Shown: one piece after another, positions 4,399 through 53,081 of the stretch
How positions within the stretch are numbered: position 1 is the first letter of the stretch
Layout of the letters: the number at the start of each line of letters is the position of its first letter
From: Candidatus Nomurabacteria bacterium
GTDB taxonomy: Bacteria > Patescibacteriota > Patescibacteriia > HK-STAS-PATE-3
Direction: 5' to 3'
DNA: 64,000 nucleotides
NCBI GenBank assembly: GCA_023898465.1
Contig: CP060223.1
Span: forward strand, 256,001-320,000
Position numbers and translations under genes: made by a program
The notes under the pieces: model-generated
What the model was told of the DNA's origin: nothing
What the model saw: only the letters and a program-made list of their open reading frames with translations
The model's database searches: none

Positions 4399-5495
4399 GT
4401 TTTTGGCTTGTCAACGGTATTTTTTTCCTAAGCAGTTTTGTGCTGGCTGCCTTGAGCACGCCGCTTTTTCGCCGGATCGCATATCGATTTCATTTACTTG
4501 ACACCCCGGCCAGCGCACCAGAACGAAAACTGCAGACTCAGCCAATTCCTTTACTTGGAGGTTGGGCGATTTTCTTTTCCTTTACCATGGTTATTCTTTT
4601 GGGTGCGTGGCTCGGCTGGTTTCAGGATGGAGTCATAAGCGCAAAAGCCTTGTATGGTGTGCTCCTCGGTGGTGGACTCATTATGGTTGGCGGTACAATA
4701 GATGATAAGTGGGGAGTAGGCCCGGCTAAGCAACTTATTTGGTCCTTCCTCGCTTGTGCTATTGTTGTGGTTTCAGGAATTGGCATCAGCTTCATTACCA
4801 ATCCATTTGGGGGTGAGTTACGCTTAGACACGCTTTCCTGGTCCGTGTTCACCATGAATGATATTTCTTATCAATTTGTGGTGTGGGCTGATCTGCTCAC
4901 TTTAGCTTGGCTCATGGGCATGATGTATACGACCAAGCTGCTTGATGGTTTAGATGGACTAGTGTCCGGAGTTGGTGCAATTGCCAGCCTTATTCTTTTT
5001 GGCGTCACCCAACTGCAAGATGTGCAGCAAGCGACCACGGGATATATTGCGCTCGCGCTGGCCGGGGCTTGTCTGGGTTTCCTTATATATAATTTTTCGC
5101 CAGCGAAGATATATTTGGGACAAGGTGGAAGTTTGCTTATCGGATTTTTCTTAGGTGTGCTTTCCATCGTGAGTGGAGGAAAAATTGCTACCGCACTTCT
5201 GGTGATGGGGATTCCGATACTGGATGTGGCGTGGGTGATTCTTCGTCGAGTGATTATCGAAAAGCGTTCGCCGCTCTCGGCAGATCGTAAGCATTTGCAT
5301 TTTCGTTTACTCGATGTTGGCTTTAGTCATCGCGGCGCCGTTCTTTTTCTCTATCTGCTCACAGCATTATTCGGTAGTGCGACATTATTCTTCCGAGGAG
5401 TGGCCAAGCTATACGCGCTCGGAGCGCTTCTCTTGGTTATGTGTGCCTTGGGTATCTGGCTCGTACGTCGATATCAAGGTTTCAATAAATCGTAG
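4395..5495 (+). CDS. Glycosyltransferase family 4, MraY/WecA-like polyprenyl-phosphate sugar-1-phosphate transferase
   Basis: Polytopic membrane protein with DDKWGVGP and DGLDGLVSGV motifs, diagnostic of the MraY/WecA superfamily. Confidence 0.75.
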   Translation: MSFWLVNGIFFLSSFVLAALSTPLFRRIAYRFHLLDTPASAPERKLQTQPIPLLGGWAIFFSFTMVILLGAWLGWFQDGVISAKALYGVLLGGGLIMVGGTIDDKWGVGPAKQLIWSFLACAIVVVSGIGISFITNPFGGELRLDTLSWSVFTMNDISYQFVVWADLLTLAWLMGMMYTTKLLDGLDGLVSGVGAIASLILFGVTQLQDVQQATTGYIALALAGACLGFLIYNFSPAKIYLGQGGSLLIGFFLGVLSIVSGGKIATALLVMGIPILDVAWVILRRVIIEKRSPLSADRKHLHFRLLDVGFSHRGAVLFLYLLTALFGSATLFFRGVAKLYALGALLLVMCALGIWLVRRYQGFNKS

Positions 5496-9598: not shown

Positions 9599-9662
9599 GT
9601 CATATCGCGCTTTTTGCATACCCAAGAAGCGAGACCCAGCATAGCGTGGGTCTCGTGTGAGT

Positions 9663-10079
9663 TCAGACGCCTTTGCGGGCGTGGGGATTGTGGCGATAGA
9701 TCGCCATTCCCGGCTTTGCGGTACTGGGAACCTCGATCAGGATATCTCCGCTAGCACCGAAGACGTTTCGCGTCGTTGCCCCGAGGTCAACACGCAGGGT
9801 TGTCAGAGGCGCTGCTCCGAGCGGATCCCCGAGACAAATAATGTCTCGATCATGCAGCGTCACTCCTTGTTTGAGGCTGGCCGTATGCGTTCGTTGGAAC
9901 TGCACACTGCCGAGTACGCCAATCTTGATCCAGTCGGTCTGCGTAGCCGCTTGCGTCGACATAGTACCCCCATTCTTCCAGTGAAAGGCACGCACGGATC
10001 TCATCCTGAGAATGTGCAAATCTTGCCACGGAGTGTAGCGCTGTGGATTTTCTTTGTCAAGCAAAACGGACACACTCAA
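9663..10079 (-). CDS. Hypothetical protein (high-GC island, first gene after tRNA-Lys)
   Basis: 138 aa ORF on the opposite strand immediately downstream of the tRNA; about 58% GC; no family recognised. Confidence 0.4.
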   Translation of the reverse strand: MSVSVLLDKENPQRYTPWQDLHILRMRSVRAFHWKNGGTMSTQAATQTDWIKIGVLGSVQFQRTHTASLKQGVTLHDRDIICLGDPLGAAPLTTLRVDLGATTRNVFGASGDILIEVPSTAKPGMAIYRHNPHARKGV

Positions 10080-10100
10080 GTGAGGTGTCCGTAGTTGGGG

Positions 10101-16940: not shown

Positions 16941-17600
16941 ATGTTAGGTTATCTTTTGCTCATTATATCGGTTGTAGAGTTTTTTATTGGCCTGTACCTT
17001 ATTTTTCGCTATGAAAAAAGCCAGGCAACAACATATTACGGTCTCTTTGCAATAAGTGTTGCGATCTATGTTGCCGCGAACGGTTTCGGATTTACCCGAG
17101 CTTCTGATAACGAGTTTATTTTTGAGCAACTTGCTTGGTTTGGCGGCTTACTTAGCGCCCCATTTATCCTTGGCTTCAGTTATAGCTTTCCTAGCCCTAA
17201 AAAATATCCCACTGAGCTATTTCCGTGGGTAATTTGGCCAGTAGTGTTATTTGGCGCAGGAATTTTTACTTCAAATATTTTCCTGGAGAAAACGTATATT
17301 TATTCCTTTGCCGAAGGCTACACTGCGCCAATCGGTGTCTTTTTCTGGTTCGCCATTGCAGTATTTGCGATGTATTGGATATGGGCAATACGAAACCTGC
17401 TGTATACGAGATTGCACACAAGCGGTTTTTATAGGAATTTTCTTACCATTGTGCTCATAGGGCTTTTTTCATCACTGCTTATTTCAGCAATTTTTGATAT
17501 TTACATTCCCTTAGTTTCAGTCACGCGCTACGGATATATTGGAGCATTATTCTCGTCTATTTGGCTGTTTACTACCGCGTATTTAATGGTGAGGAAGTAA
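16941..17600 (+). CDS. Stand-alone histidine-kinase N-terminal 7TM sensor-domain paralog 1 (HisKA_7TM-like)
   Basis: 219 aa, 6-7 TM. Alignable to the N-terminus of the HK at 22990: RY.KS.AT.YYGLFA...LAWFGG...PFILGFSYSFP.PKK versus R.ENTSSRLFGATV...FLLFSWYFPKK. Ends exactly where the kinase linker would begin. Confidence 0.65.
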   Translation: MLGYLLLIISVVEFFIGLYLIFRYEKSQATTYYGLFAISVAIYVAANGFGFTRASDNEFIFEQLAWFGGLLSAPFILGFSYSFPSPKKYPTELFPWVIWPVVLFGAGIFTSNIFLEKTYIYSFAEGYTAPIGVFFWFAIAVFAMYWIWAIRNLLYTRLHTSGFYRNFLTIVLIGLFSSLLISAIFDIYIPLVSVTRYGYIGALFSSIWLFTTAYLMVRK

Positions 17601-17601
17601 G

Positions 17602-18261
17602 ATGATTGGATATATATTACTCATTATCTCAGTTGTTGAAGTAATACTCGGTTTTTATTTGATTTTTCGATATGTAAAAAGTCCAGCAACTATATATTAC
17701 GGCCTATTCGCGCTAAGTGTAGCACTCTATGTAGGTGCAAACGGGTATGGTTTTAGTCCGTTTTCAGAAAATGATATATGGCTGGAAATAATTGCCTGGA
17801 TTGGCGGGACCTTTACCGCTCCTTTTATTCTTGGCTTCAGTTACTCATTCCCTTATCCACGTAAGTCCAATAAGGAAATACTGTCTTTAGTTCTTAGTCC
17901 ACTCGTTTTTTTCTTCGTCGTAATACTTTTTTCTAATACTTTTGTAGATCATAATAGTGTTATCAGCTTTGATGAAGGATTTCAAAGACCTGTCGGGGAG
18001 TTACACTGGTTTGTATTATCAGTATTCTTTTTCTATTGGGTTTGGTCTTTTATTGAACTAGTAAAGAGTCGAAAAAAATCCGACGGCTTTAATAAGAATT
18101 TTCTTCTTATTTTAATTATAGGCTTAGTTTTTTCTTTGTTGGTTTCGGTATTTACTAACATCATTCATCCACTTGTCGATGTTTCAAAGTTAGGTTATAT
18201 GGGCCCCTTAGCCTCTTCAATCTGGCTATTTATTACTGGGTACTTGATATTGAGGAAGTAA
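17602..18261 (+). CDS. 7TM sensor-domain paralog 2
   Basis: About 50% identical to paralog 1; 1-nt intergenic gap. Confidence 0.65.
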   Translation: MIGYILLIISVVEVILGFYLIFRYVKSPATIYYGLFALSVALYVGANGYGFSPFSENDIWLEIIAWIGGTFTAPFILGFSYSFPYPRKSNKEILSLVLSPLVFFFVVILFSNTFVDHNSVISFDEGFQRPVGELHWFVLSVFFFYWVWSFIELVKSRKKSDGFNKNFLLILIIGLVFSLLVSVFTNIIHPLVDVSKLGYMGPLASSIWLFITGYLILRK

Positions 18262-18932
18262 TGAACACCTTTCATTTAGTTTTACTTTTTACACTTTTCT
18301 TTATTCACGCGACTCTCGCAATATGGATGTTGCGTAGATATGTGCAGACGCTATCCATTCGTTATTACTCAGGCTTTTTATTTGGACTAGCACTTATTGC
18401 ACTATTAAATGGTTTATTGCTGTTATTTGGCGGTCAGGAGAGTCAAACAGTCCTTCATAAGATCGGCTTTATCTCAGGCACCTTCACTTTTGTGATGTTC
18501 TTTATGTTTAGTAAGTACTTTCCAATTTCTACTGCAAGACCAAACTCCCGCGACATTCTTTTTTGGGTAATTCCGATTACATTTTTTATTCCATTCATAC
18601 TTTTTAATCAGCAGTTTATCCAGTCTGTGATTATAGAAAATGGAATAAGTAAGCCTACATTTGGAGTCTGGTATACACCATTTATGTTAGTTTTGGCCAC
18701 CTTTGTTCTGGGGGCTATCTATAATCTCATACAGAAATATAAAATAACCACTGAACTTGAAATTAGGAAGAACATTAGAGACATTACGGCAGTATTTTTC
18801 GTATCAGGACTCCTTGGCTTTTTGTTGGACGTTGTGTTGCCAAGGTTTAATGTTTATACGGCACATTACTTTGCCATTGAATCTTCACTTTTTGTTGCGC
18901 TAACTACTGCAATTATTATTGCAAAGAAGTAA
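18261..18932 (+). CDS. 7TM sensor-domain paralog 3
   Basis: Same length class and topology; overlaps the previous stop. Confidence 0.6.
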   Translation: MNTFHLVLLFTLFFIHATLAIWMLRRYVQTLSIRYYSGFLFGLALIALLNGLLLLFGGQESQTVLHKIGFISGTFTFVMFFMFSKYFPISTARPNSRDILFWVIPITFFIPFILFNQQFIQSVIIENGISKPTFGVWYTPFMLVLATFVLGAIYNLIQKYKITTELEIRKNIRDITAVFFVSGLLGFLLDVVLPRFNVYTAHYFAIESSLFVALTTAIIIAKK

Positions 18933-18933
18933 G

Positions 18934-37381: not shown

Positions 37382-37456
37382 GGCCCTATCGTCTAGTGGC
37401 TAGGACGCATGGTTCTCATCCATGTAACAGGGGTTCGATTCCCCTTAGGGCTACCA
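37382..37456 (+). tRNA. tRNA-Glu (anticodon CUC), CCA encoded
   Basis: Strong similarity to canonical tRNA-Glu (TCGTCTAGTGGCTAGGAC D-arm; anticodon loop TTCTCAT; T-arm GGGGTTCGATTCCCC; acceptor GGCCCTA/TAGGGCT with G1-U72). Confidence 0.85.
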
Positions 37457-37610
37457 GCCCGCTTAGCGGGCTCTGCTGATAAGGATAGAAGAAAGTAAAA
37501 GTGGAATGTTTAGCATGTTGTTTTATAAGTTAAGGAATCGAACGGGCGAGGACGTCTGCCAGCGGCAGGCGACCGCAAGCCCCGGCCTGAAGTCCCGATA
37601 GGGACGGAAT

Positions 37611-37634
37611 GGTCGATTCCCCTTAGGGCTACCA
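37611..37634 (+). repeat. Direct repeat of the 3' 24-25 nt of tRNA-Glu (candidate att scar, or a tRNA-like RNA 3' end)
   Basis: GGTCGATTCCCCTTAGGGCTACCA matches tRNA positions 37432-37456 apart from a 1-nt deletion, and lies 155 bp downstream. Confidence 0.7.
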
Positions 37635-37927
37635 CGGGCCATTGCGCCGTGCGGACTGCGTCCGACCAGGTCGGACTCCGCCCTTACGGCGCATGTCCCT
37701 TTCCCCATTGCAAACAGTCCCTCTCGGCAGCCTCGAGGTCCTTGGTTTGCAACGGGGGCCCCGATAAGAGTGCGGGCCCAAGTGCTCGGCATTACAAAGC
37801 GTCCCAGAAAAAATGCCAGACACAAGTCTTCGGCATTTAATGAGAAGAAGACGTAGGTCAACTTCAGAGTGAGTCACCACAAACATCGTCGCTGCGCTAG
37901 AGGCAGCATAATTCAGGAGGAAAAAAT

Positions 37928-38467
37928 ATGTCACGTAGCGTACTCATTTTCATCGTACTCCTCGTTATCCTCGCAGTAGGCGGTGGAATTGTTTGGTGGA
38001 TGGTCACCAACCCAAGCGAAAATAGCAACACAAATAATGCCGTTGTCGCGAATACCAACACTGAGGTGAATGCAAATGCTGCACCGAATATTGATGTACA
38101 GGCCGGTGCGGTGGATGTAGGACGAGAAGCCTTGCTGACCAGTGCGAACTTCCGCGCCAGCTCAGCTTCATTGCTCAGCGAATTTGACGGCCTAAGCGCC
38201 GCTGAAGATAAAAGCTACCTGGTTGTCTATTACATGTTGACGCCTTACGAAGGATCAAGCGAAAACGTGCCAAATCTGAACGATCAAAACGTTTCAGTCA
38301 GCAGCGGTGACACTTCCTATACACTGCAAGCAATTGGCACCACCCAGAGCGAAACTGATGGCGAAGAACTTGGCTATCTGCGTTTCGAAGTGCCTGTTGA
38401 CGCAAGCGGATTTGTCCTAACGATTTTAGACGGCGACATAGAGCAGACGATTGATCTGGGCTTTTAA
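37928..38467 (+). CDS. Hypothetical secreted/membrane-anchored protein
   Basis: Strong RBS AGGAGGA; N-terminal TM; Asn/Thr-rich linker; no family recognised. Confidence 0.5.
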   Translation: MSRSVLIFIVLLVILAVGGGIVWWMVTNPSENSNTNNAVVANTNTEVNANAAPNIDVQAGAVDVGREALLTSANFRASSASLLSEFDGLSAAEDKSYLVVYYMLTPYEGSSENVPNLNDQNVSVSSGDTSYTLQAIGTTQSETDGEELGYLRFEVPVDASGFVLTILDGDIEQTIDLGF

Positions 38468-39666: not shown

Positions 39667-42600
39667 ATGGACTCTGCCCCATTAACACTACAAACGAAGA
39701 CACTGCAGAGGTCTTCCGATCTAAATAATTACAGACTCTATCGCGCAGCTCTTGAATGGGAGTTGATTGATCCTATTGTCATAGAAGACCGGGATGACAT
39801 GCATTCCGAAAGTAGTTGGCGTGATCGTCTTGAGCCGTATCATCATCAAGTAACTAACCTAATAACTTTTTGTCGTCGCCTACCTGTTACTTTACTGGCG
39901 GATGATGTCGGGTTAGGAAAAACAATTAGTGCTGGCCTAGTTTTAAGCGAGTTAATTTCGCGCGGGAGAATTTCAAAAATATTAATAGTTTGCCCAAAAA
40001 TACTTCGAGATCAGTGGAAAGAAGAATTGGAAATAAAGTTCCGAATTCCGTCCACAATTGTGACAGGAAGAGAATTAATTACGGCAAAGCCTCCTGAAGA
40101 ACCAGGAGCGGTAATTACCACATACAATACGGCCAGACTGTATTTAGATAGAATTGACCAGAATGGTTTTGAAATATTGATACTTGATGAGGCGCATAAA
40201 TTGCGGAATCTATATGGTGTTGACCCAACACCTCAAGTTGCAATTAAATTCCGTAAAGCTCTGGCTGACCGGATGTTTAAGTACGTATTAATGTTAACTG
40301 CAACGCCGATCCAGAACAGACTATGGGATCTCTACTCGTTGGTTGACTTATTAACCGTTGCACGCGGCCATGAAAATCCCTTTGGAACGCCAGGTATTTT
40401 TGCGAGAAAATTTATTGCAGATAGTCGCACACAAGCGCGTCAGCTTAATCCGGAGATGCGGGATGAGTTTCGCTCAATTATTTACGGTTATATGTCTCGG
40501 GTTCGTCGTGGAGATGCAAAACTCCACTTCCCAGAGCGGGTAGTACAGTTGCATAAAGTTGACCCAACACCAGAAGAATTGCAGTTGATCGGTGTGGTCG
40601 GAAAATCTATACAACAACTGAATGCGCTTACACAAATTGTAATCCTCCAAGCTTTGGTGAGTAGTCCAGAAGCGCTAATAAAGATGTTAGAAGGAATGGC
40701 TAAAAAAGGAACCGTACCGCGTGAGGTGTTGGCGAACGTTAAGGAATCAGCCAAAGAAATTCAAATCACTACAAAACTAAAAGGTTTGGGCGCGTTAGTT
40801 GAAAAACTTAGAAAGGAGCAACCCAATACTTGGCGGGTGGTAGTTTTTACAAGATGGCGAGAAACTCAAACAACTATCGAAACTTTTCTTGAAAAGCAAG
40901 GAGTAAAATGCGGCTTGATAAATGGCGATTCAAGTAAGCGAAATCAGGAAACAATCCAAAGATTTAAAAAAGACTTACCAGACATTAATGTAATTATTTC
41001 TACTGAAGCAGGTTCGGAGGGCGTTAACCTTCAGGCCGCTAATGTTTTGGTTAATTACGATCTCCCCTGGAATCCAATGATAGTGGAACAAAGAATAGGT
41101 CGTATTCAAAGACTTGCTTCTAATTATGCAAATGTTTCTATTTTTAATATTGTTTTGCAAAATACCTTTGAAGAATATATTGTAGGGCGCTTGATGGAAA
41201 AGTTGCAGATGGCTTCTCATGCAATTGGGGATATTGAAGCACTATTGGAAGCATCCGGCATTGATGAAGGTGAAGAAAATGGCTCAAGTGGTTTTGAAGA
41301 AAAAATTCGCCAGTTAGTAGTTGCATCTTTAGCTGGAAAAGATGTTGAGCAGGCAACTCGTAAAGCTGAACAGAGTATTTCAGAAGCTAAAACAGAATTA
41401 GACCATGAAGAAAAGAACATTAATGCTTTACTTGGGGGGATGAGTGATTCTCTAGATTCTGGTCCAAGATGTCCGAAGCTTCCTCAAACTACTAAGTCGA
41501 TGGATGTCCGTGATTTTACTACGGCTGCTCTTATGAGCTTAGGCGCGGAACTACATCCAAAAAAGGATGGTTTATTAGTTTCACAACTTGCTGGGAAAAA
41601 AGAATTAATCCGATTTGATAATAACACTCTGAGCAGTGAAGAGGAGAGTGTCTTATATGCACCGGGAACTTCAACTTTTGAACGCTTAGTCCATAAAGTT
41701 GCAAATGTAGGAAAACACATTGTTGAAGACCTTGATAAAAACCCCCAACAGCAAATTGAGAAAGTAAGTCGTCAATGGGTCGAAAGTTTTGGCGGAGACT
41801 TCGAAAATGTAACGGTAGAGGACGTTTCTCGATGTTTTGCAGGAGTAGCAATAATTCGTGCAAGATCAACAGTAGCTCACGATAGTTATGAGCGTCTCAT
41901 TGAGGTTTCGTGCGCTCCCACTGAGCATTTCAGTTTTGTGACAAGAACGGGATTGGAACCCATCGGAGACTATATTGAAAATCCGACATCTGTTGGTGCG
42001 CTTTCAGAAAAATTAATTGAAAAAGCCAGCCAAGACTCGAGTATTCTTGAGTTCTGTAGATTTTATTTAGAACGAAGATCTCAAGAAATTGCCTCCGCAG
42101 GAAATGACGAAAGAAAAAAGAAAAAGCTTGAGGATGAGTTTACGCCCCGTCTTGAATTTTCCCTAGTCGGTCTTGAGGGCAAGGTTCATCGGATAGTTAA
42201 AAATCAGGTCTCTTATAGAATTGAACGTGAGGGCCAATACAAAAGTACCCTCATGATAACCCCCTCTTCTGGGCAAGTTGATATGCCGGGGATGGGACAA
42301 TGCATGAAAACAGGTAAGACTGTACCGAGCGATTGCTTAGCAAAGTGCGAAATAAGCGGACTTATAGTATTGCGGCATTTTCTTGATCAATCAGAGATCA
42401 GTAATCGACTGGCGCTCCCTGAGCACATCGTTTTATGTACGTTAAGCAACAAGCGAGTGCTAGCGGACGAAGCTATAAAATCAGATGTTACGGGCAAACT
42501 AGTCGCAAAGAAGTTTTTAAAAACATCTTCTCTGAGTGGCAAATTCGCTGAACCACAGTTCATTAACACTTGTGAGTTTACAAAAACAGAAGTTCTGGAA

Positions 42601-43194
42601 AGCGAAATTGCGGTCAGCCAGATTTCAGGAAAAAGATATCGCATTGATGAGCAACTTAAATCCGCAGTTTCAGGAAAACTAGGCCATCGACAAGAATTTG
42701 TAGCAAGTAGTATTTCATCAGCCCCACTTCTTGAAGAAGAAGCCATTCGTTCGGTCACTGGAAAATTTTGTGCACCAATGGAAGCGAGGCCCTGCACTTG
42801 GAGTGGTCGAAAGTGTCACCCCGAAGACCTTAGGACTTGCGAGTTGACCGGAGTCCAAATTCATTCAGAGTACGTAACGCTCGAACCACCAATTCGTTTA
42901 GAAACCCTAAATAATCTTTTGAATGGCACGAGGAGCAAATCTGACAAATTGGAAGTATGGCCTTCACTTTCAAATAGCGTTACAGCTTTATTAAAAGCAA
43001 AACGTTGTAAAATTGAAACAGCAGAAGTTTCACCTAGTGACGATATTTTGGCCGCTTCTATAGAGCTTCGAACTTTTCTAGGCCTGCGCGTGAGTCACAT
43101 TGGCGTACTTTATTCAATAAAGGATGGATCCGTAGTCGGGCGTGTTGCTAGAGGCAAGCGTGGTGATAAGGGCTGGAATCAAACTAAGAACTAA
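39667..43194 (+). CDS. SNF2-family helicase with about 600-aa repeat-containing C-terminal extension
   Basis: Motif I DDVGLGKTISAG, motif II LILDEAHKLRN, motif III LTATPIQNRLWDL, motif VI QRIGRIQR. C-terminal half has no known domain but contains about 8 short S/T-G-K repeats. Confidence 0.85.
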   Translation: MDSAPLTLQTKTLQRSSDLNNYRLYRAALEWELIDPIVIEDRDDMHSESSWRDRLEPYHHQVTNLITFCRRLPVTLLADDVGLGKTISAGLVLSELISRGRISKILIVCPKILRDQWKEELEIKFRIPSTIVTGRELITAKPPEEPGAVITTYNTARLYLDRIDQNGFEILILDEAHKLRNLYGVDPTPQVAIKFRKALADRMFKYVLMLTATPIQNRLWDLYSLVDLLTVARGHENPFGTPGIFARKFIADSRTQARQLNPEMRDEFRSIIYGYMSRVRRGDAKLHFPERVVQLHKVDPTPEELQLIGVVGKSIQQLNALTQIVILQALVSSPEALIKMLEGMAKKGTVPREVLANVKESAKEIQITTKLKGLGALVEKLRKEQPNTWRVVVFTRWRETQTTIETFLEKQGVKCGLINGDSSKRNQETIQRFKKDLPDINVIISTEAGSEGVNLQAANVLVNYDLPWNPMIVEQRIGRIQRLASNYANVSIFNIVLQNTFEEYIVGRLMEKLQMASHAIGDIEALLEASGIDEGEENGSSGFEEKIRQLVVASLAGKDVEQATRKAEQSISEAKTELDHEEKNINALLGGMSDSLDSGPRCPKLPQTTKSMDVRDFTTAALMSLGAELHPKKDGLLVSQLAGKKELIRFDNNTLSSEEESVLYAPGTSTFERLVHKVANVGKHIVEDLDKNPQQQIEKVSRQWVESFGGDFENVTVEDVSRCFAGVAIIRARSTVAHDSYERLIEVSCAPTEHFSFVTRTGLEPIGDYIENPTSVGALSEKLIEKASQDSSILEFCRFYLERRSQEIASAGNDERKKKKLEDEFTPRLEFSLVGLEGKVHRIVKNQVSYRIEREGQYKSTLMITPSSGQVDMPGMGQCMKTGKTVPSDCLAKCEISGLIVLRHFLDQSEISNRLALPEHIVLCTLSNKRVLADEAIKSDVTGKLVAKKFLKTSSLSGKFAEPQFINTCEFTKTEVLESEIAVSQISGKRYRIDEQLKSAVSGKLGHRQEFVASSISSAPLLEEEAIRSVTGKFCAPMEARPCTWSGRKCHPEDLRTCELTGVQIHSEYVTLEPPIRLETLNNLLNGTRSKSDKLEVWPSLSNSVTALLKAKRCKIETAEVSPSDDILAASIELRTFLGLRVSHIGVLYSIKDGSVVGRVARGKRGDKGWNQTKN

Positions 43195-43195
43195 T

Positions 43196-44686
43196 ATGAA
43201 CCCTCTACTTACAAAAACCGATTATCTTCTTTACCGGGAATGCCCAAAGAATGTTTGGTATAAAATCCAAAAACCTGAATTGTATGCTACATCGGAGCTA
43301 ACAGAGTTTGAAAAATCGATAATGGAAACAGGTAATGAGGTTGAAAAGATTGCAAGGCAACTTTTTCCAAACGGGGTGTTAGTAACTTATCGTGATGCGC
43401 GCGGTCAAGCTGAGACACAAAAGCTATTGGCGGAGAACAAGGATGTGATTTTTCAGCCAGTTTTTGTCAAAAATAACTTTTTGGCTGCTATTGATGTTCT
43501 ACAAAAAGAAAAGAATGGCAAGGGCTACAATGTTTACGAAATAAAATCGACTAGTGATGTAGATAAGAAAACACATTTTCACGACCTAGCATTTCAAGTA
43601 AACGTTCTCAGAATGACAGGCCTGGGAATTAATAAATCATTTGTCATTCATCTAAACTCTGAATATATTCGAAAGGGAGAAATTGAGCTGGATCAGTTAT
43701 TTAAAGTATCAGATGTGACGGATGAAGTAGAAAGTCTTTTACCGGATGTTGCGACTGAGGCGGAAGAAGCATTGAAGTATATTAGCCAAACTTCTGAACC
43801 AGAGGGGTACTGCTGCTGTATTTATAAAGGTCGATCAAGGCATTGTTCAACCTTTCAGCTAGCGAACCCCGAAGTACCCGAATATAGTGTCCACGATATT
43901 TCTAGGATAGGGGTAAGCAAGGCTAAATTAAAAGAGCTAATTGACGGAAGTATTTTTCACCTGGACAAGATTCCGCCACACATTAAATTAAGCGAAATTC
44001 AACAAGGTCAAGTTGAAACCTATAAATTGAATAAGGTATTAGTAGATAAGGAAAGAATTGCGGAAGAATTTAGTGGTCTCACATTCCCACTTTATTTTCT
44101 TGATTATGAAACATTTCCATCAGCAATACCAAGATATGATGGCTTTTCACCATATAAACAAATTCCGTTCCAGTATTCTGTTTACAAACTAGATTCAGTC
44201 GAGAGTGAGCCAACTCATTTTGATTTTTTGTACTCTGGTCCCGAAGACCCCAGCAAGCACTTTGCCGAGTCTTTAAGGGAACATATCGGGGATAAAGGCT
44301 CGATCATCGTTTGGCATAAAGACTTCGAGTGTGGCAGAAATAATGAAATAGGTAGTCGAATTCCTACTTCGAAGGCTTTTTTTGACTCTGTTAATCAGCG
44401 AGTATACGATCTCGAAGACATTTTCAAGAAACAATACCACGTTCATCGAGATTATAAGGGAAGCACATCTATTAAAAACGTATTGCCTGTTTTAGTGCCA
44501 GAATTAACGTATAAAGACCTTGAAATTCGTGATGGTGGCAGTGCAGCGGATAGTTGGGACAAAATAATTAGTGGTGTATATAACGAGACAGAGAAAGAAA
44601 AGGTAATAAAAGATTTAAAGATTTATTGTGGTCTTGATACATTTGCAATGTATGCTATTTGGAATTGCTTGAACAAGCTACTCTAA
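43196..44686 (+). CDS. Cas4/RecB-like PD-(D/E)xK nuclease domain protein with probable Fe-S cluster, plus a C-terminal domain of unknown function
   Basis: N-terminal Cys (YRECPKNVWY); motif II IDVL; motif III YEIKS; Cys cluster EGYCCCIYKGRSRHC. Start taken at MNPLLTK (ATG 43196), overlapping the SNF2 stop region. Confidence 0.6.
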   Translation: MNPLLTKTDYLLYRECPKNVWYKIQKPELYATSELTEFEKSIMETGNEVEKIARQLFPNGVLVTYRDARGQAETQKLLAENKDVIFQPVFVKNNFLAAIDVLQKEKNGKGYNVYEIKSTSDVDKKTHFHDLAFQVNVLRMTGLGINKSFVIHLNSEYIRKGEIELDQLFKVSDVTDEVESLLPDVATEAEEALKYISQTSEPEGYCCCIYKGRSRHCSTFQLANPEVPEYSVHDISRIGVSKAKLKELIDGSIFHLDKIPPHIKLSEIQQGQVETYKLNKVLVDKERIAEEFSGLTFPLYFLDYETFPSAIPRYDGFSPYKQIPFQYSVYKLDSVESEPTHFDFLYSGPEDPSKHFAESLREHIGDKGSIIVWHKDFECGRNNEIGSRIPTSKAFFDSVNQRVYDLEDIFKKQYHVHRDYKGSTSIKNVLPVLVPELTYKDLEIRDGGSAADSWDKIISGVYNETEKEKVIKDLKIYCGLDTFAMYAIWNCLNKLL

Positions 44687-44690
44687 ACCT

Positions 44691-45392
44691 ATGAGCTTTC
44701 TTAAGATTTTTAGTGATGATTCTAAAGACAAGCCAAAAGAAAATGATAGTCGGAAACCTGAATGTCCATACTGTCAGGGCGTTTTAGTTAAAATTCCTGC
44801 TAGAAAAACAAAATGTTTTCACTGTGGGAAATATATTTTTGTACGAACACAGACAAAGGACAGAAAGCTCGTTTTGGTTACTGAAGAAAATTCGGCCGCG
44901 ATAGACTCTGAATGGGAGTCAAAACAAGCCGCTACGATCACTTCATTGGTGGAGAAAGTAGATTTTACAAAGAAAAAAGAAGGTCTGCGCGAAGGGTTTG
45001 GGGACAAGGAACCCTCCGTTAGTGACATAAAGTGGGGCTTGTGGAACAAGAGGCTTCAGGAAGCAATGAAACGCAATGATTTTTCAGAACTTTCAGGAAT
45101 ATATTTTCAAATGGCTCTGCGCTTGCACGAAAGTGGAAAAGACAGCTTTAAACTTCAGGGCCAGGCTCAAAAAATGTTTTTGTTTAAAGAAAAGCAAAGC
45201 GGTGTTGTTTCTAGCGTAGAGGTTTTTTCTAGAGATGGCTGTGAAGAATGTAAGAAAATAAACGGAAAGAAATTTGTTATTTTTGAAGCACTAAAACTCA
45301 TGCCACTACCCGTTCAATCCTGCACAAACAAACTGAATAAGAATGCGCCCAATGGTTGGTGTCGATGCACTTTTCTTCCTTTTATAGATTAA
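44691..45392 (+). CDS. Zn-ribbon-containing hypothetical protein
   Basis: CPYCQG...CFHCGK N-terminal C4 ribbon; C-terminal Cys pairs (CEEC; CRC); 4-nt gap after the nuclease gene. Confidence 0.5.
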   Translation: MSFLKIFSDDSKDKPKENDSRKPECPYCQGVLVKIPARKTKCFHCGKYIFVRTQTKDRKLVLVTEENSAAIDSEWESKQAATITSLVEKVDFTKKKEGLREGFGDKEPSVSDIKWGLWNKRLQEAMKRNDFSELSGIYFQMALRLHESGKDSFKLQGQAQKMFLFKEKQSGVVSSVEVFSRDGCEECKKINGKKFVIFEALKLMPLPVQSCTNKLNKNAPNGWCRCTFLPFID

Positions 45393-52757: not shown

Positions 52758-53081
52758 ATGTCCTGCACTTTTACCTTTCCCGTACCCAAGGGCGTCACGG
52801 AGTTTCGGATCACCACACCCAATTCTGAGAAACTGGCCGGCACCGGACCTCGCTGGGTGGAGGTCAAGGAAGGCTGGACCAGATCCTACAAGCCGATCGA
52901 GGGTGGGCCTGGTACCATCAGAGTGACCAAGGTTGGTCAGGTGCGAGGCGGACACCGTATGGTGACCGTCGAGCTGGTCGACATGACCGCCACCTACGAG
53001 GCGGTGCTGCACTGCAAGCCGGCACCGAGCCAGGCAGTGCAGGAGGCCAGACAGGAGGTCCCGGTCGCCCAAGCATCCTAG
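52758..53081 (+). CDS. Hypothetical small protein in a high-GC (about 63%) islet
   Basis: RBS GAGGAGGGAG 6 nt upstream; terminator hairpin at 53104-53137; no family recognised. Confidence 0.5.
   Translation: MSCTFTFPVPKGVTEFRITTPNSEKLAGTGPRWVEVKEGWTRSYKPIEGGPGTIRVTKVGQVRGGHRMVTVELVDMTATYEAVLHCKPAPSQAVQEARQEVPVAQAS

What the first reader, a model, noticed from the sequence alone, without database searches (positions are those of the whole stretch)
37382..37880. tRNA-Glu followed by a duplicated 3' tRNA fragment and a 330-nt GC-rich structured non-coding segment
The last 25 nt of tRNA-Glu (GGTTCGATTCCCCTTAGGGCTACCA) recur as a direct repeat at 37611-37634 with one T missing. Duplication of a tRNA 3' end is the signature of site-specific integration (attL/attR), but only about 155 bp lie between the copies, so any element has been lost or the repeat has another origin. 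From 37536 to about 37870 the sequence is more than 60% GC with many short hairpins and only spurious reverse-strand ORFs. It sits upstream of a gene with a strong RBS. This could be an att scar plus regulatory leader, or an unannotated structured RNA whose 3' end is tRNA-like.
Basis: seen in the sequence. Interest (0 to 1): 0.6.

Follow-up and report, generated by a model that had tools for sequence, protein, structure and literature searches.

The report
Structured mini-insert at a tRNA-Glu gene
About 350-400 bases next to a glutamate tRNA gene, GC-rich for most of their length, are an insertion that left a 22-base copy of the tRNA gene's end, and their core is a gene-less, hairpin-rich unit of about 180 bases that recurs at the same tRNA in two distant relatives, so it may be a miniature mobile element and not only a scar.

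Summary
tRNA-Glu(CUC) lies at 37382-37456. Its last 22 nt (T55 to CCA) recur exactly at 37613-37634. The stretch 37534-37800 is about 65% GC in a 46.5% GC window and folds into stable hairpins.

It is not a tmRNA and matches no Rfam family. It is not a conserved leader either. The two closest relatives with the same gene order (GAPDH 73% identical) have the tRNA followed after 63-95 nt by the orthologous downstream gene. They have no repeat and no GC-rich block. The window segment is therefore an insertion.

Two distant Patescibacteria (GAPDH 59-63% identical to the window and to each other) carry the same arrangement at their own tRNA-Glu(CUC). In each, an exact copy of that genome's own 22-nt tRNA end lies 140-146 nt downstream. 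It is preceded by a 9-10-nt segment complementary to the tRNA T loop and by two GC-rich hairpins.

Best reading: a site-specific integration footprint of the T-loop class. Its core is a recurrent non-coding unit of about 165-180 bp, followed by older inserted DNA. No integrase is present. Whether the unit acts as DNA or RNA is unresolved.

The parts
37382..37456 (+). tRNA-Glu, anticodon CUC, with CCA encoded. This is the intact (regenerated) target gene.
   Evidence: ARAGORN. Rfam RF00005, 62.5 bits.
37435..37456 (+). Repeat copy 1 (called O here): T55 through the CCA end of the tRNA, TCGATTCCCCTTAGGGCTACCA.
37457..37471 (+). Hairpin GCCCGC-TTA-GCGGGC directly after CCA. No T run follows it.
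   Evidence: Sequence. Centroid fold. Not called as a terminator.
37472..37529 (+). AT-rich spacer of the unit. The whole of 37457-37533 is 39% GC.
37530..37543 (+). Anti-O segment. GGAATCGAAC (37534-37543) is 10/10 complementary to the tRNA T loop GTTCGATTCC and 8/8 complementary to the start of copy 2. TTAAGG (37530-37535) extends the complementarity to CCTTAG across a 2-nt bulge.
   Evidence: the repeat finder pair I3. Folds. P1 is paired in all three carriers, with one A-U to U-A swap.
37544..37582 (+). GC-rich hairpin domain A (GGGC...GCCC enclosing GUCUGCC/GGCAGGC).
   Evidence: MFE folds.
37584..37614 (+). GC-rich hairpin domain B (GGCC...GGUC enclosing UCCC/GGGA).
   Evidence: MFE folds. 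It contains G-U pairs; the + strand folds at -47.1 kcal/mol (z = -2.95) and the - strand at -37.4 (z = -0.47).
37613..37634 (+). Repeat copy 2 (displaced copy of O), identical to copy 1. T54 is missing and there is no 5' acceptor strand, so it is not a tRNA.
   Evidence: No second tRNA or tmRNA call.
37635..37800 (.). GC-rich block (64.5%) of three long hairpins: arms 37643-37667/37669-37693, arms 37703-37715/37745-37757, and 37756-37779. It is inserted DNA lying beyond copy 2. Its origin is not shown; it is inferred to be the remnant of an earlier insertion.
   Evidence: Absent from the empty-site relatives. No homolog in the window, the held loci, phages, plasmids or viral contigs.
37802..37829 (.). 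Hairpin AAATGCC...GGCATTT flanked by an A run. It reads as hairpin plus T6 on the minus strand and could be a bidirectional terminator. It marks the approximate end of the extra DNA.
   Evidence: Sequence and folds. Not reported by the terminator scan.

Best explanation
Window 37457 to about 37800-37835 is DNA inserted at the tRNA-Glu(CUC) gene by site-specific recombination at a T-loop-to-3'-end attachment site.

The tRNA was regenerated as copy 1. The displaced 22-bp copy now lies 156 bp downstream as copy 2.

What the two copies bound is not a gutted island of random size. It is a defined non-coding unit (178 bp start to start). It consists of a hairpin after CCA, an AT-rich half, a segment complementary to the tRNA T loop, two GC-rich hairpins, and then the 22-bp copy.

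Equivalent units sit at the same tRNA in two distant Patescibacteria, each carrying that genome's own tRNA end.

I infer that the unit is a miniature, cis-mobilisable att-bearing element (or the conserved attP region of one) that is moved in trans by a recombinase encoded elsewhere. I also infer that the GC-rich hairpin block beyond copy 2 is what is left of an earlier insertion at the same site.

Shown: the repeat, its boundaries, the empty sites, the recurrence and the shared architecture. Inferred: the recombinase type, mobility in trans, the order of events, and whether the hairpins act in DNA or in RNA.
For: (1) The identity block runs from T55 to CCA in all three carriers: window, L005 and L151. 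This is the layout of T-loop-class integrase sites. The Ms6 attP core, for example, is 26 bp from the T stem to near the 3' end, with the 7-bp T loop suggested as the site of strand exchange (PMC1762012). The Islander principle is a regenerated tDNA plus a co-oriented displaced 3' fragment; that database lists 3760 islands with a 3' fragment and 1836 with a T-stem site (PMC4383910).

(2) Empty sites. L088 and L089 (GAPDH 73% identical to the window's, same order GAPDH - small TM protein - tRNA-Glu - about 175-aa protein - GT4) have 63 and 95 nt between the tRNA and the orthologous downstream gene. Neither has a copy 2.

(3) Patchy distribution. Of 9 distinct tRNA-Glu(CUC) loci whose downstream flank could be examined, 3 carry the unit. 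The carriers are 59-63% identical to one another in GAPDH, while non-carriers exist at 73% (to the window) and 83% (to L005).

(4) Recurrent unit. The gap between copies is 156, 140 and 146 nt. In each carrier a 9-10-nt complement of the resident T loop lies 70-92 nt before copy 2 and encloses two GC-rich hairpins. P1 forms 8 of 8 pairs in all three, with an A-U to U-A swap that follows the T-loop variant.

(5) L005 and L151 share TCGAAGGGCAG-RAGTGA ... GAAC ... CTGCCCAG around hairpins of unrelated sequence.

(6) Signs of repeated use of the site. L151 has a decayed third copy (16 of 22) 72 nt beyond copy 2 (240 nt after the tRNA). L005 has about 1.7 kb of extra DNA, with a serine-recombinase N-terminal fragment 126 nt after copy 2. 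Two contigs from relatives end in or just after this tRNA.

(7) The insert's composition (65% against 46.5% GC) departs from the surrounding window.
Against: - No integrase or other recombinase lies in the interval, and none was found among 20 window ORFs scanned. tblastn with the L005 recombinase fragment also finds nothing in the window.
- 156 bp is far below any known autonomous element.
- The GC-rich block lies outside the two repeats, which a single integration does not explain, and no decayed third repeat closes it.
- A stem complementary to the T loop and GC-rich hairpins that keep pairing while their sequence changes are not known features of tyrosine-integrase attP arms. They look more like an RNA or a folded single strand.
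- The window's module shares only the anti-T-loop segment, GGGC and the overall layout with the L005/L151 module, so its membership in the same family is weaker.
- With three sequences the covariation is not statistically significant (66 of 500 shuffles reach it).
- No circular form, second genomic copy or phage/plasmid counterpart was found.
- A narrow pattern scan of JGI metagenomes found only one instance.
Confidence: 0.55

Rival explanations
1. Ordinary deletion remnant. A full-size prophage or island once sat between the two repeats, and internal deletion left only its attP arms. The similar size and layout in three genomes would then reflect common descent from one element family, and the short unit would have no existence or function of its own.
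For: Same att-type evidence as the best explanation. L005 still has recombinase debris and 1.7 kb of extra DNA next to the unit. L151 has a decayed third copy.
Against: Independent deletions should give random lengths, not 140, 146 and 156 nt. The hairpins between L005 and L151 differ in sequence yet keep pairing, and the anti-T-loop segment matches each host's own T loop. Neutral debris would not do that across genomes only 59% identical in GAPDH.
Confidence: 0.2
2. A small structured RNA gene. A Y-shaped RNA of about 100-180 nt is made either from the tRNA-Glu transcript or on its own. Its 3' tail is the tRNA's acceptor 3' strand plus ACCA, and its closing stem masks the T-loop sequence. It would act on tRNA-Glu, on the tRNA gene, or on an enzyme that reads tRNA 3' ends.
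For: GC-rich hairpins in an AT-richer genome. Significant folding of the + strand module (z = -2.95) but not of the - strand in the window, with G-U pairs. A conserved junction sequence and tandem G-A motif flanking variable hairpins in L005 and L151. A copy 2 that is identical to the resident tRNA in every carrier.
Against: Absent from the closest relatives of both the window and L005. Only one instance in a JGI-wide pattern scan. No Rfam family. No promoter or terminator call around it. L005 and L151 modules fold equally well on both strands. No 5' acceptor strand to make a tRNA-like helix.
Confidence: 0.15
3. Remnant of an RNA-guided homing system. Copy 2 would be a guide matching the tRNA gene, preceded by a structured scaffold, as in the tRNA-targeting delocalised crRNA of type V-K CRISPR-associated transposons or in guide RNAs of IS elements.
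For: Scaffold-then-guide order. The target copy is preceded by GGGT and the guide copy is not, which is PAM-like logic. The insertion lies just downstream of the target. The comparison with those systems rests on my own knowledge.
Against: No cas12k, tns, tnpB, iscB or IS110-type gene in or near the locus. No Rfam guide-RNA family hit. The first 8 nt of the would-be guide are sequestered in stem P1. The flanking genes are conserved host genes.
Confidence: 0.03
4. Local duplication by replication slippage or repair, copying the tRNA end, with no mobile element involved.
For: A short direct repeat with short spacing.
Against: The same boundary (T55), similar spacing, an inverted T-loop segment and hairpins occur in three unrelated lineages. 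The sequence after copy 2 is not a second copy of the spacer.
Confidence: 0.03
5. A one-piece or circularly permuted (two-piece) tmRNA, or another known housekeeping RNA such as RNase P, 6S or SRP.
For: A tRNA-like 3' end with CCA followed by structured GC-rich sequence.
Against: ARAGORN, which detects permuted tmRNA, finds none. No Rfam hit at E<=10. No 5' acceptor strand. Position 70 is G, so no G3-U70 pair can form. No tag reading frame. The segment is absent from close relatives.
Confidence: 0.01

Closest known systems
Prophage and genomic-island integration into tRNA genes at the T-loop sublocation (for example mycobacteriophage Ms6 at tRNA-Ala; the Islander principle of a regenerated tDNA plus a displaced 3' fragment)
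   Same: An intact tRNA plus a co-oriented copy of its 3' end. The identity block starts in the T loop and runs to the 3' end. Relatives have empty sites. There are signs of repeated use of the same tRNA.
   Different: The interval is 156 bp and has no integrase or any other gene. Inserted DNA also lies beyond the displaced copy. The interval carries a T-loop-complementary stem and conserved hairpins that are not known attP features.
CIMEs (cis-mobilisable elements): att-flanked derivatives of integrative elements that lack recombination genes and are moved in trans (my own knowledge, Streptococcus thermophilus ICE literature)
   Same: Flanked by att repeats, no recombinase, and found in tandem with other inserted DNA at the same site.
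   Different: As far as I recall, CIMEs are kilobase-scale and carry genes, whereas this unit is about 165-180 bp, non-coding and structurally conserved. Mobilisation has not been shown.
Structure-based recombination sites: the folded single-stranded attP of CTX phage and integron attC sites (my own knowledge)
   Same: An inverted partial copy of the target about 70-90 nt from a direct copy, so that one strand can fold into a stem that rebuilds the target duplex, with bulged bases. Structure is conserved more than sequence.
   Different: The stem is only 8-10 bp (about 14 with a bulge). No Xer- or IntI-type link is shown. The target here is a tRNA gene, not dif or attI. This is a resemblance only.
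Two-piece (permuted) tmRNA genes
   Same: A T-arm and acceptor 3' strand with CCA lying upstream of structured sequence.
   Different: No matching 5' acceptor strand, no G3-U70, no tag ORF, no ARAGORN or Rfam hit, and not conserved in relatives.

Membership tests
tRNA-gene integration footprint (attL/attR) | Intact tRNA gene plus a co-oriented fragment of the same tRNA's 3' end downstream | tested here: met
   The 22-nt exact copy at 37613-37634 is on the same strand as the tRNA.
tRNA-gene integration footprint (attL/attR) | The identity block starts at a canonical sublocation (anticodon loop or T loop/T stem) and runs to the 3' end | tested here: met
   It starts at T55 and ends at CCA in all three carriers. 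Compare the Ms6 core.
tRNA-gene integration footprint (attL/attR) | An integrase gene inside the interval | tested here: not met
   The interval is 156 bp with no ORF. There is no recombinase among 20 window ORFs and no remnant by tblastn.
tRNA-gene integration footprint (attL/attR) | An empty site in related genomes | tested here: met
   L088 and L089 have the same synteny and an orthologous downstream gene, with only 63-95 nt after the tRNA.
Cis-mobilisable or miniature integrative element | Flanked by att repeats, lacks recombination genes, and recurs as a defined unit | tested here: met
   Three units with gaps of 140-156 nt between copies and the same layout.
Cis-mobilisable or miniature integrative element | Excision and integration in trans; a circular junction or multiple genomic copies | not testable with these tools
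   There is only one copy in the 64 kb window. Reads and the rest of the genome are not available.
tmRNA (one-piece or permuted) | A tRNA-like domain with paired 5' and 3' acceptor strands, G3-U70, and a tag reading frame; detected by ARAGORN or Rfam | tested here: not met
   Position 70 is G and there is no complementary 5' strand nearby.
Any Rfam 15 RNA family | A covariance-model match | tested here: not met
   Only tRNA matched; nothing else credible at E<=10 in the window region or E<=5 in L005 and L151.
Conserved structured RNA (new family) | Helices supported by compensatory changes across homologs | tested here: inconclusive
   P1 is fully paired in 3 of 3 sequences, with one double change. 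P2 is shared by L005 and L151. The hairpins differ in sequence but keep pairing. With n=3, 66 of 500 shuffles reach the score.
Regulatory leader of the downstream gene | Conserved upstream of orthologous genes | tested here: not met
   The orthologs in L088 and L089 lack it.
CRISPR-associated or IS-encoded guide RNA | A neighbouring RNA-guided nuclease, transposase or recombinase gene | tested here: not met

The most novel reading that the evidence does not exclude
The 165-180-bp unit is a new kind of miniature, non-coding, tRNA-Glu(CUC)-specific integrative element. It carries both a direct copy and an inverted partial copy of its target around a conserved Y-shaped fold. That fold, as a folded single DNA strand or as an RNA, would itself be the recombination substrate or guide that directs insertion at the tRNA gene's T-loop-to-3'-end site.
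Probability: 0.25. Interest if true: 0.7.

Novelty: new variant of a known kind. Interest (0 to 1): 0.45.

Why it matters
tRNA-fragment repeats are the standard marker of integrated islands, and short ones are usually dismissed as scars. Here the short form has a defined size and fold that track the resident tRNA in three distant candidate-phyla-radiation lineages. If it is a real mini-element, it would show that att-site recombination systems have non-autonomous, MITE-like parasites or satellites. It could also point to a structure-dependent (folded-strand or RNA-assisted) way of recognising tRNA genes in a group of bacteria whose mobile elements are poorly known. If it is only debris, the locus still marks tRNA-Glu(CUC) as a recombination hot spot in these genomes.

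Tried and rejected
- tmRNA, RNase P, 6S, SRP and all other Rfam families: no hit.
- Third or decayed repeat in the window: none significant.
- Other copies of the segment in the window or in any held locus: none.
- Phage, plasmid and IMG/VR counterparts of the window unit, the hairpin block and the L005/L151 units: none. The one viral hit to the 22-mer is a phage-encoded tRNA-Glu.
- Generic module pattern in viral contigs: 60 hits, almost all tandem tRNA genes whose T arm reads GGATTCGAA, so false positives.
- Motif TCGAAGGGCAGRAGTGA in viral contigs: chance hits in coding sequence. The fuller module pattern gave no hits.
- Metagenome scan for two tRNA-Glu-type ends 130-160 nt apart: a single locus, L151.
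- Hammerhead ribozyme and group I intron readings of the module: core motifs are absent. There is no CUGANGA, and the base before copy 2 is G, A or C, not a conserved G (sequence inspection).
- Recombinase remnant in the window: none.
- Covariance-model search: not built, because the automatic alignment misplaces the variable hairpins and only in-session sequence could have been searched.

Full report
**What is there**

The window comes from a Patescibacteria (CPR) genome. An identical GAPDH is recorded in an NCBI MAG labelled Candidatus Nomurabacteria. The best species-level relatives are Kerfeld- and Komeilibacteria at 62-64%.

ARAGORN and Rfam place tRNA-Glu(CUC), with encoded CCA, at 37382-37456. 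Its last 22 nt, TCGATTCCCCTTAGGGCTACCA (T55 to A76), recur exactly at 37613-37634. No shuffle of the window gives a second match, and the 64 kb hold no further copy.

The stretch between the copies has four parts:
- a hairpin directly after CCA (37457-37471);
- an AT-rich spacer (37457-37533 as a whole is 39% GC);
- GGAATCGAAC (37534-43), which is perfectly complementary to the tRNA T loop GTTCGATTCC;
- two GC-rich hairpin domains (37544-37582 and 37584-37614), running into copy 2.

After copy 2 come three long hairpins (37635-37800, 64.5% GC) and an A-run/hairpin at 37802-37829. The next gene starts at 37928 behind AGGAGG. The window average is 46.5% GC.

**What it is not**

Nothing but the tRNA matches Rfam, even at E<=10 with permissive filters. 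ARAGORN reports no tmRNA of either kind. No 5' acceptor strand is available for copy 2, and position 70 is G, so the alanine identity pair of tmRNA cannot form. The ORFs across the segment overlap one another on both strands, and a public gene call on an identical contig leaves the region empty.

**Orthologous loci**

I fetched relatives through GAPDH homologs. L088 and L089 (GAPDH 73% identical) have exactly the window's gene order: ScpA, ScpB, TpiA, GAPDH, a small membrane protein, tRNA-Glu(CUC), a protein of about 175 aa, and a GT4 glycosyltransferase.

Their tRNA is nearly identical to the window's. It is followed after 63 and 95 nt by the ortholog of the window's 179-aa protein, which aligns end to end at 29-33% identity. 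The window has 471 nt in this gap. These relatives have no second copy of the tRNA end and no GC-rich block.

So about 350-400 nt of the window (37457 to roughly 37800-37835) is an insertion. It cannot be a conserved leader of the downstream gene.

**The same arrangement elsewhere**

L005 is a Kerfeldbacteria MAG (GAPDH 63% identical) with the same GAPDH - small protein - tRNA-Glu synteny. The last 22 nt of its own tRNA (TCGAATCCCCATGGCGGTACCA) recur 140 nt downstream.

A metagenome scan for two tRNA-Glu-type ends 130-160 nt apart found one further locus, L151. There the copy (TCGATTCCCCGTAGCGGTACCA) lies 146 nt downstream.

In all three genomes:
- identity begins at T55 and T54 is lost;
- a 9-10-nt complement of the resident T loop lies 70-92 nt before copy 2;
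- two GC-rich hairpins lie between that complement and copy 2.

The stem formed by the complement and copy 2 is fully paired in all three. Its one variable pair is A-U in the window and L151 and U-A in L005, following the T-loop variant of each tRNA.

L005 and L151 also share TCGAAGGGCAG-RAGTGA, GAAC and CTGCCCAG around hairpins of unrelated sequence. This indicates common ancestry of the module with maintenance of pairing. The window's module has the same layout but little of this sequence.

The three carriers are mutually distant (GAPDH 59-63%). Non-carriers are closer to them: L088 and L089 at 73% to the window, and L158 at 83% to L005, with L159-L161 at about 80%. Three of the nine distinct loci whose downstream flank could be examined carry the unit. 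Among 615 tRNAs in everything fetched, no other has a truncated copy of its own 3' end nearby.

**Interpretation**

An identity block from the T loop to the 3' end, a regenerated tRNA, a co-oriented displaced fragment and empty sites in relatives are the accepted signature of site-specific integration into tRNA genes (PMC4383910; Ms6 attP core, PMC1762012).

Other observations fit a hot spot that has been used repeatedly:
- L151 has a decayed third copy (16 of 22) 72 nt beyond copy 2 (240 nt after the tRNA).
- L005 has about 1.7 kb of extra DNA between copy 2 and the orthologous downstream gene, beginning with a serine-recombinase N-terminal fragment.
- L085 and L162 carry duplicated 5' pieces of the tRNA upstream of the gene.
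- Contigs of two relatives break in or just after the tRNA.

I therefore read the window as tRNA[1-54] - O - unit body - O - older inserted DNA - host. Under this reading the 178-bp unit is the most recent arrival, and the hairpin block 37635-37800 is the residue of an earlier one whose far repeat is gone.

**What does not fit a plain scar**

Random deletion should not give gaps of 140, 146 and 156 nt in three lineages. It should not keep a stem that tracks each host's T loop, and it should not preserve hairpins through sequence turnover. No known attP arm has these features.

They suggest either a non-autonomous mini-element whose fold matters for recombination, or a small RNA. Evidence for an RNA is limited:
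- The window module folds significantly only on the + strand (-47.1 kcal/mol, z = -2.95, against -37.4, z = -0.47) and uses G-U pairs, but L005 and L151 show no strand asymmetry.
- No promoter or terminator is called around the module.
- With three sequences the covariation is not significant.

No recombinase is present in the interval, among 20 ORFs scanned in the window, or as a remnant. No counterpart exists in phage, plasmid or viral collections.

**Verdict**

The tmRNA/known-RNA and leader alternatives are rejected.

The new element is that the "scar" is a recurrent, structured unit of about 165-180 bp specific to tRNA-Glu(CUC). I file it as a new variant of a known kind: a tRNA-gene integration footprint, resembling a cis-mobilisable element. 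Confidence is 0.55 and interest is moderate.

The most novel reading not excluded is a miniature element whose folded strand or transcript is itself the recombination substrate or guide. I give that a probability of about 0.25.

Noticed in passing
L005 7345-7542; L165-L174 (for example L165 2914-3102, 3148-4485, 4467-4736, repeat at about 4766-4795): The 65-aa ORF after copy 2 in L005 is the first 37 or so residues of a serine recombinase. A database search found 167 relatives, and all 120 listed are short (38-114 aa), up to 92% identical over those 37 residues, from many CPR lineages. For the one homolog whose contigs were fetched (P0126), the short ORF is always followed 46 nt later by a 445-aa ORF with no Pfam hit and an 84-89-aa ORF, in at least four genomic contexts. 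It often starts about 140 nt after a tRNA-Leu(UAA). About 30 nt of its own coding sequence (KEFAAKEKL) recur after the last ORF. This looks like a widespread CPR mobile element inserted in or built on a recombinase 5' end.
   Followed up: partly
window 39667-45392: An SNF2-family helicase (1175 aa), a DUF2779 protein (514 aa) and a 233-aa ORF sit between the GT4 glycosyltransferase and hrcA. Those two are adjacent, or nearly so (one or two small intervening ORFs at most), in relatives L089, L158 and L161. This is a second insertion relative to those genomes, possibly a defence island.
   Followed up: partly
window 9599-10100: A GC-rich patch (about 58%) lies directly after tRNA-Lys(UUU), with overlapping ORFs of 138 and 145 aa on opposite strands. 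The one scanned (the 138-aa minus-strand ORF) has no Pfam hit. The tRNA end is not duplicated here. It may be foreign DNA at a second tRNA.
   Followed up: partly
window 52758-53081: A 107-aa ORF in the most GC-rich stretch of the window (about 62%), with its own RBS-like AGGAGG and no Pfam hit. It is a likely horizontally acquired gene.
   Followed up: no
L085 6301-6340; L162 5339-5350: Duplicated 5' pieces of tRNA-Glu(CUC) (10-12 nt, in L085 with more of the D arm after a 10-nt insert) lie about 50-100 nt upstream of the gene. L085 also has GGTGGGGCTACCA, resembling another lineage's tRNA-Glu end, about 47 nt downstream of the tRNA. Both flanks of this tRNA collect tRNA fragments.
   Followed up: no
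L164 3607-3668 (contig end); L162 5400-5530 (contig end): Assemblies of two relatives stop inside the tRNA-Glu T arm or 56 nt after the tRNA. This is consistent with strain-level variation downstream of the gene.
   Followed up: no
L084 4611-4684 (IMG/VR contig of 332 kb): A very large viral contig encodes a tRNA-Glu(CUC) whose last 22 nt are identical to the window's tRNA end. It lies next to another tRNA and a small ORF.
   Followed up: no
window 16941-23021: Nine consecutive, partly overlapping ORFs of about 220-275 aa lie on the + strand, many with TTG or GTG starts, followed by a 931-aa ORF. This may be a paralogous gene array. It was seen only in the ORF list.
   Followed up: no
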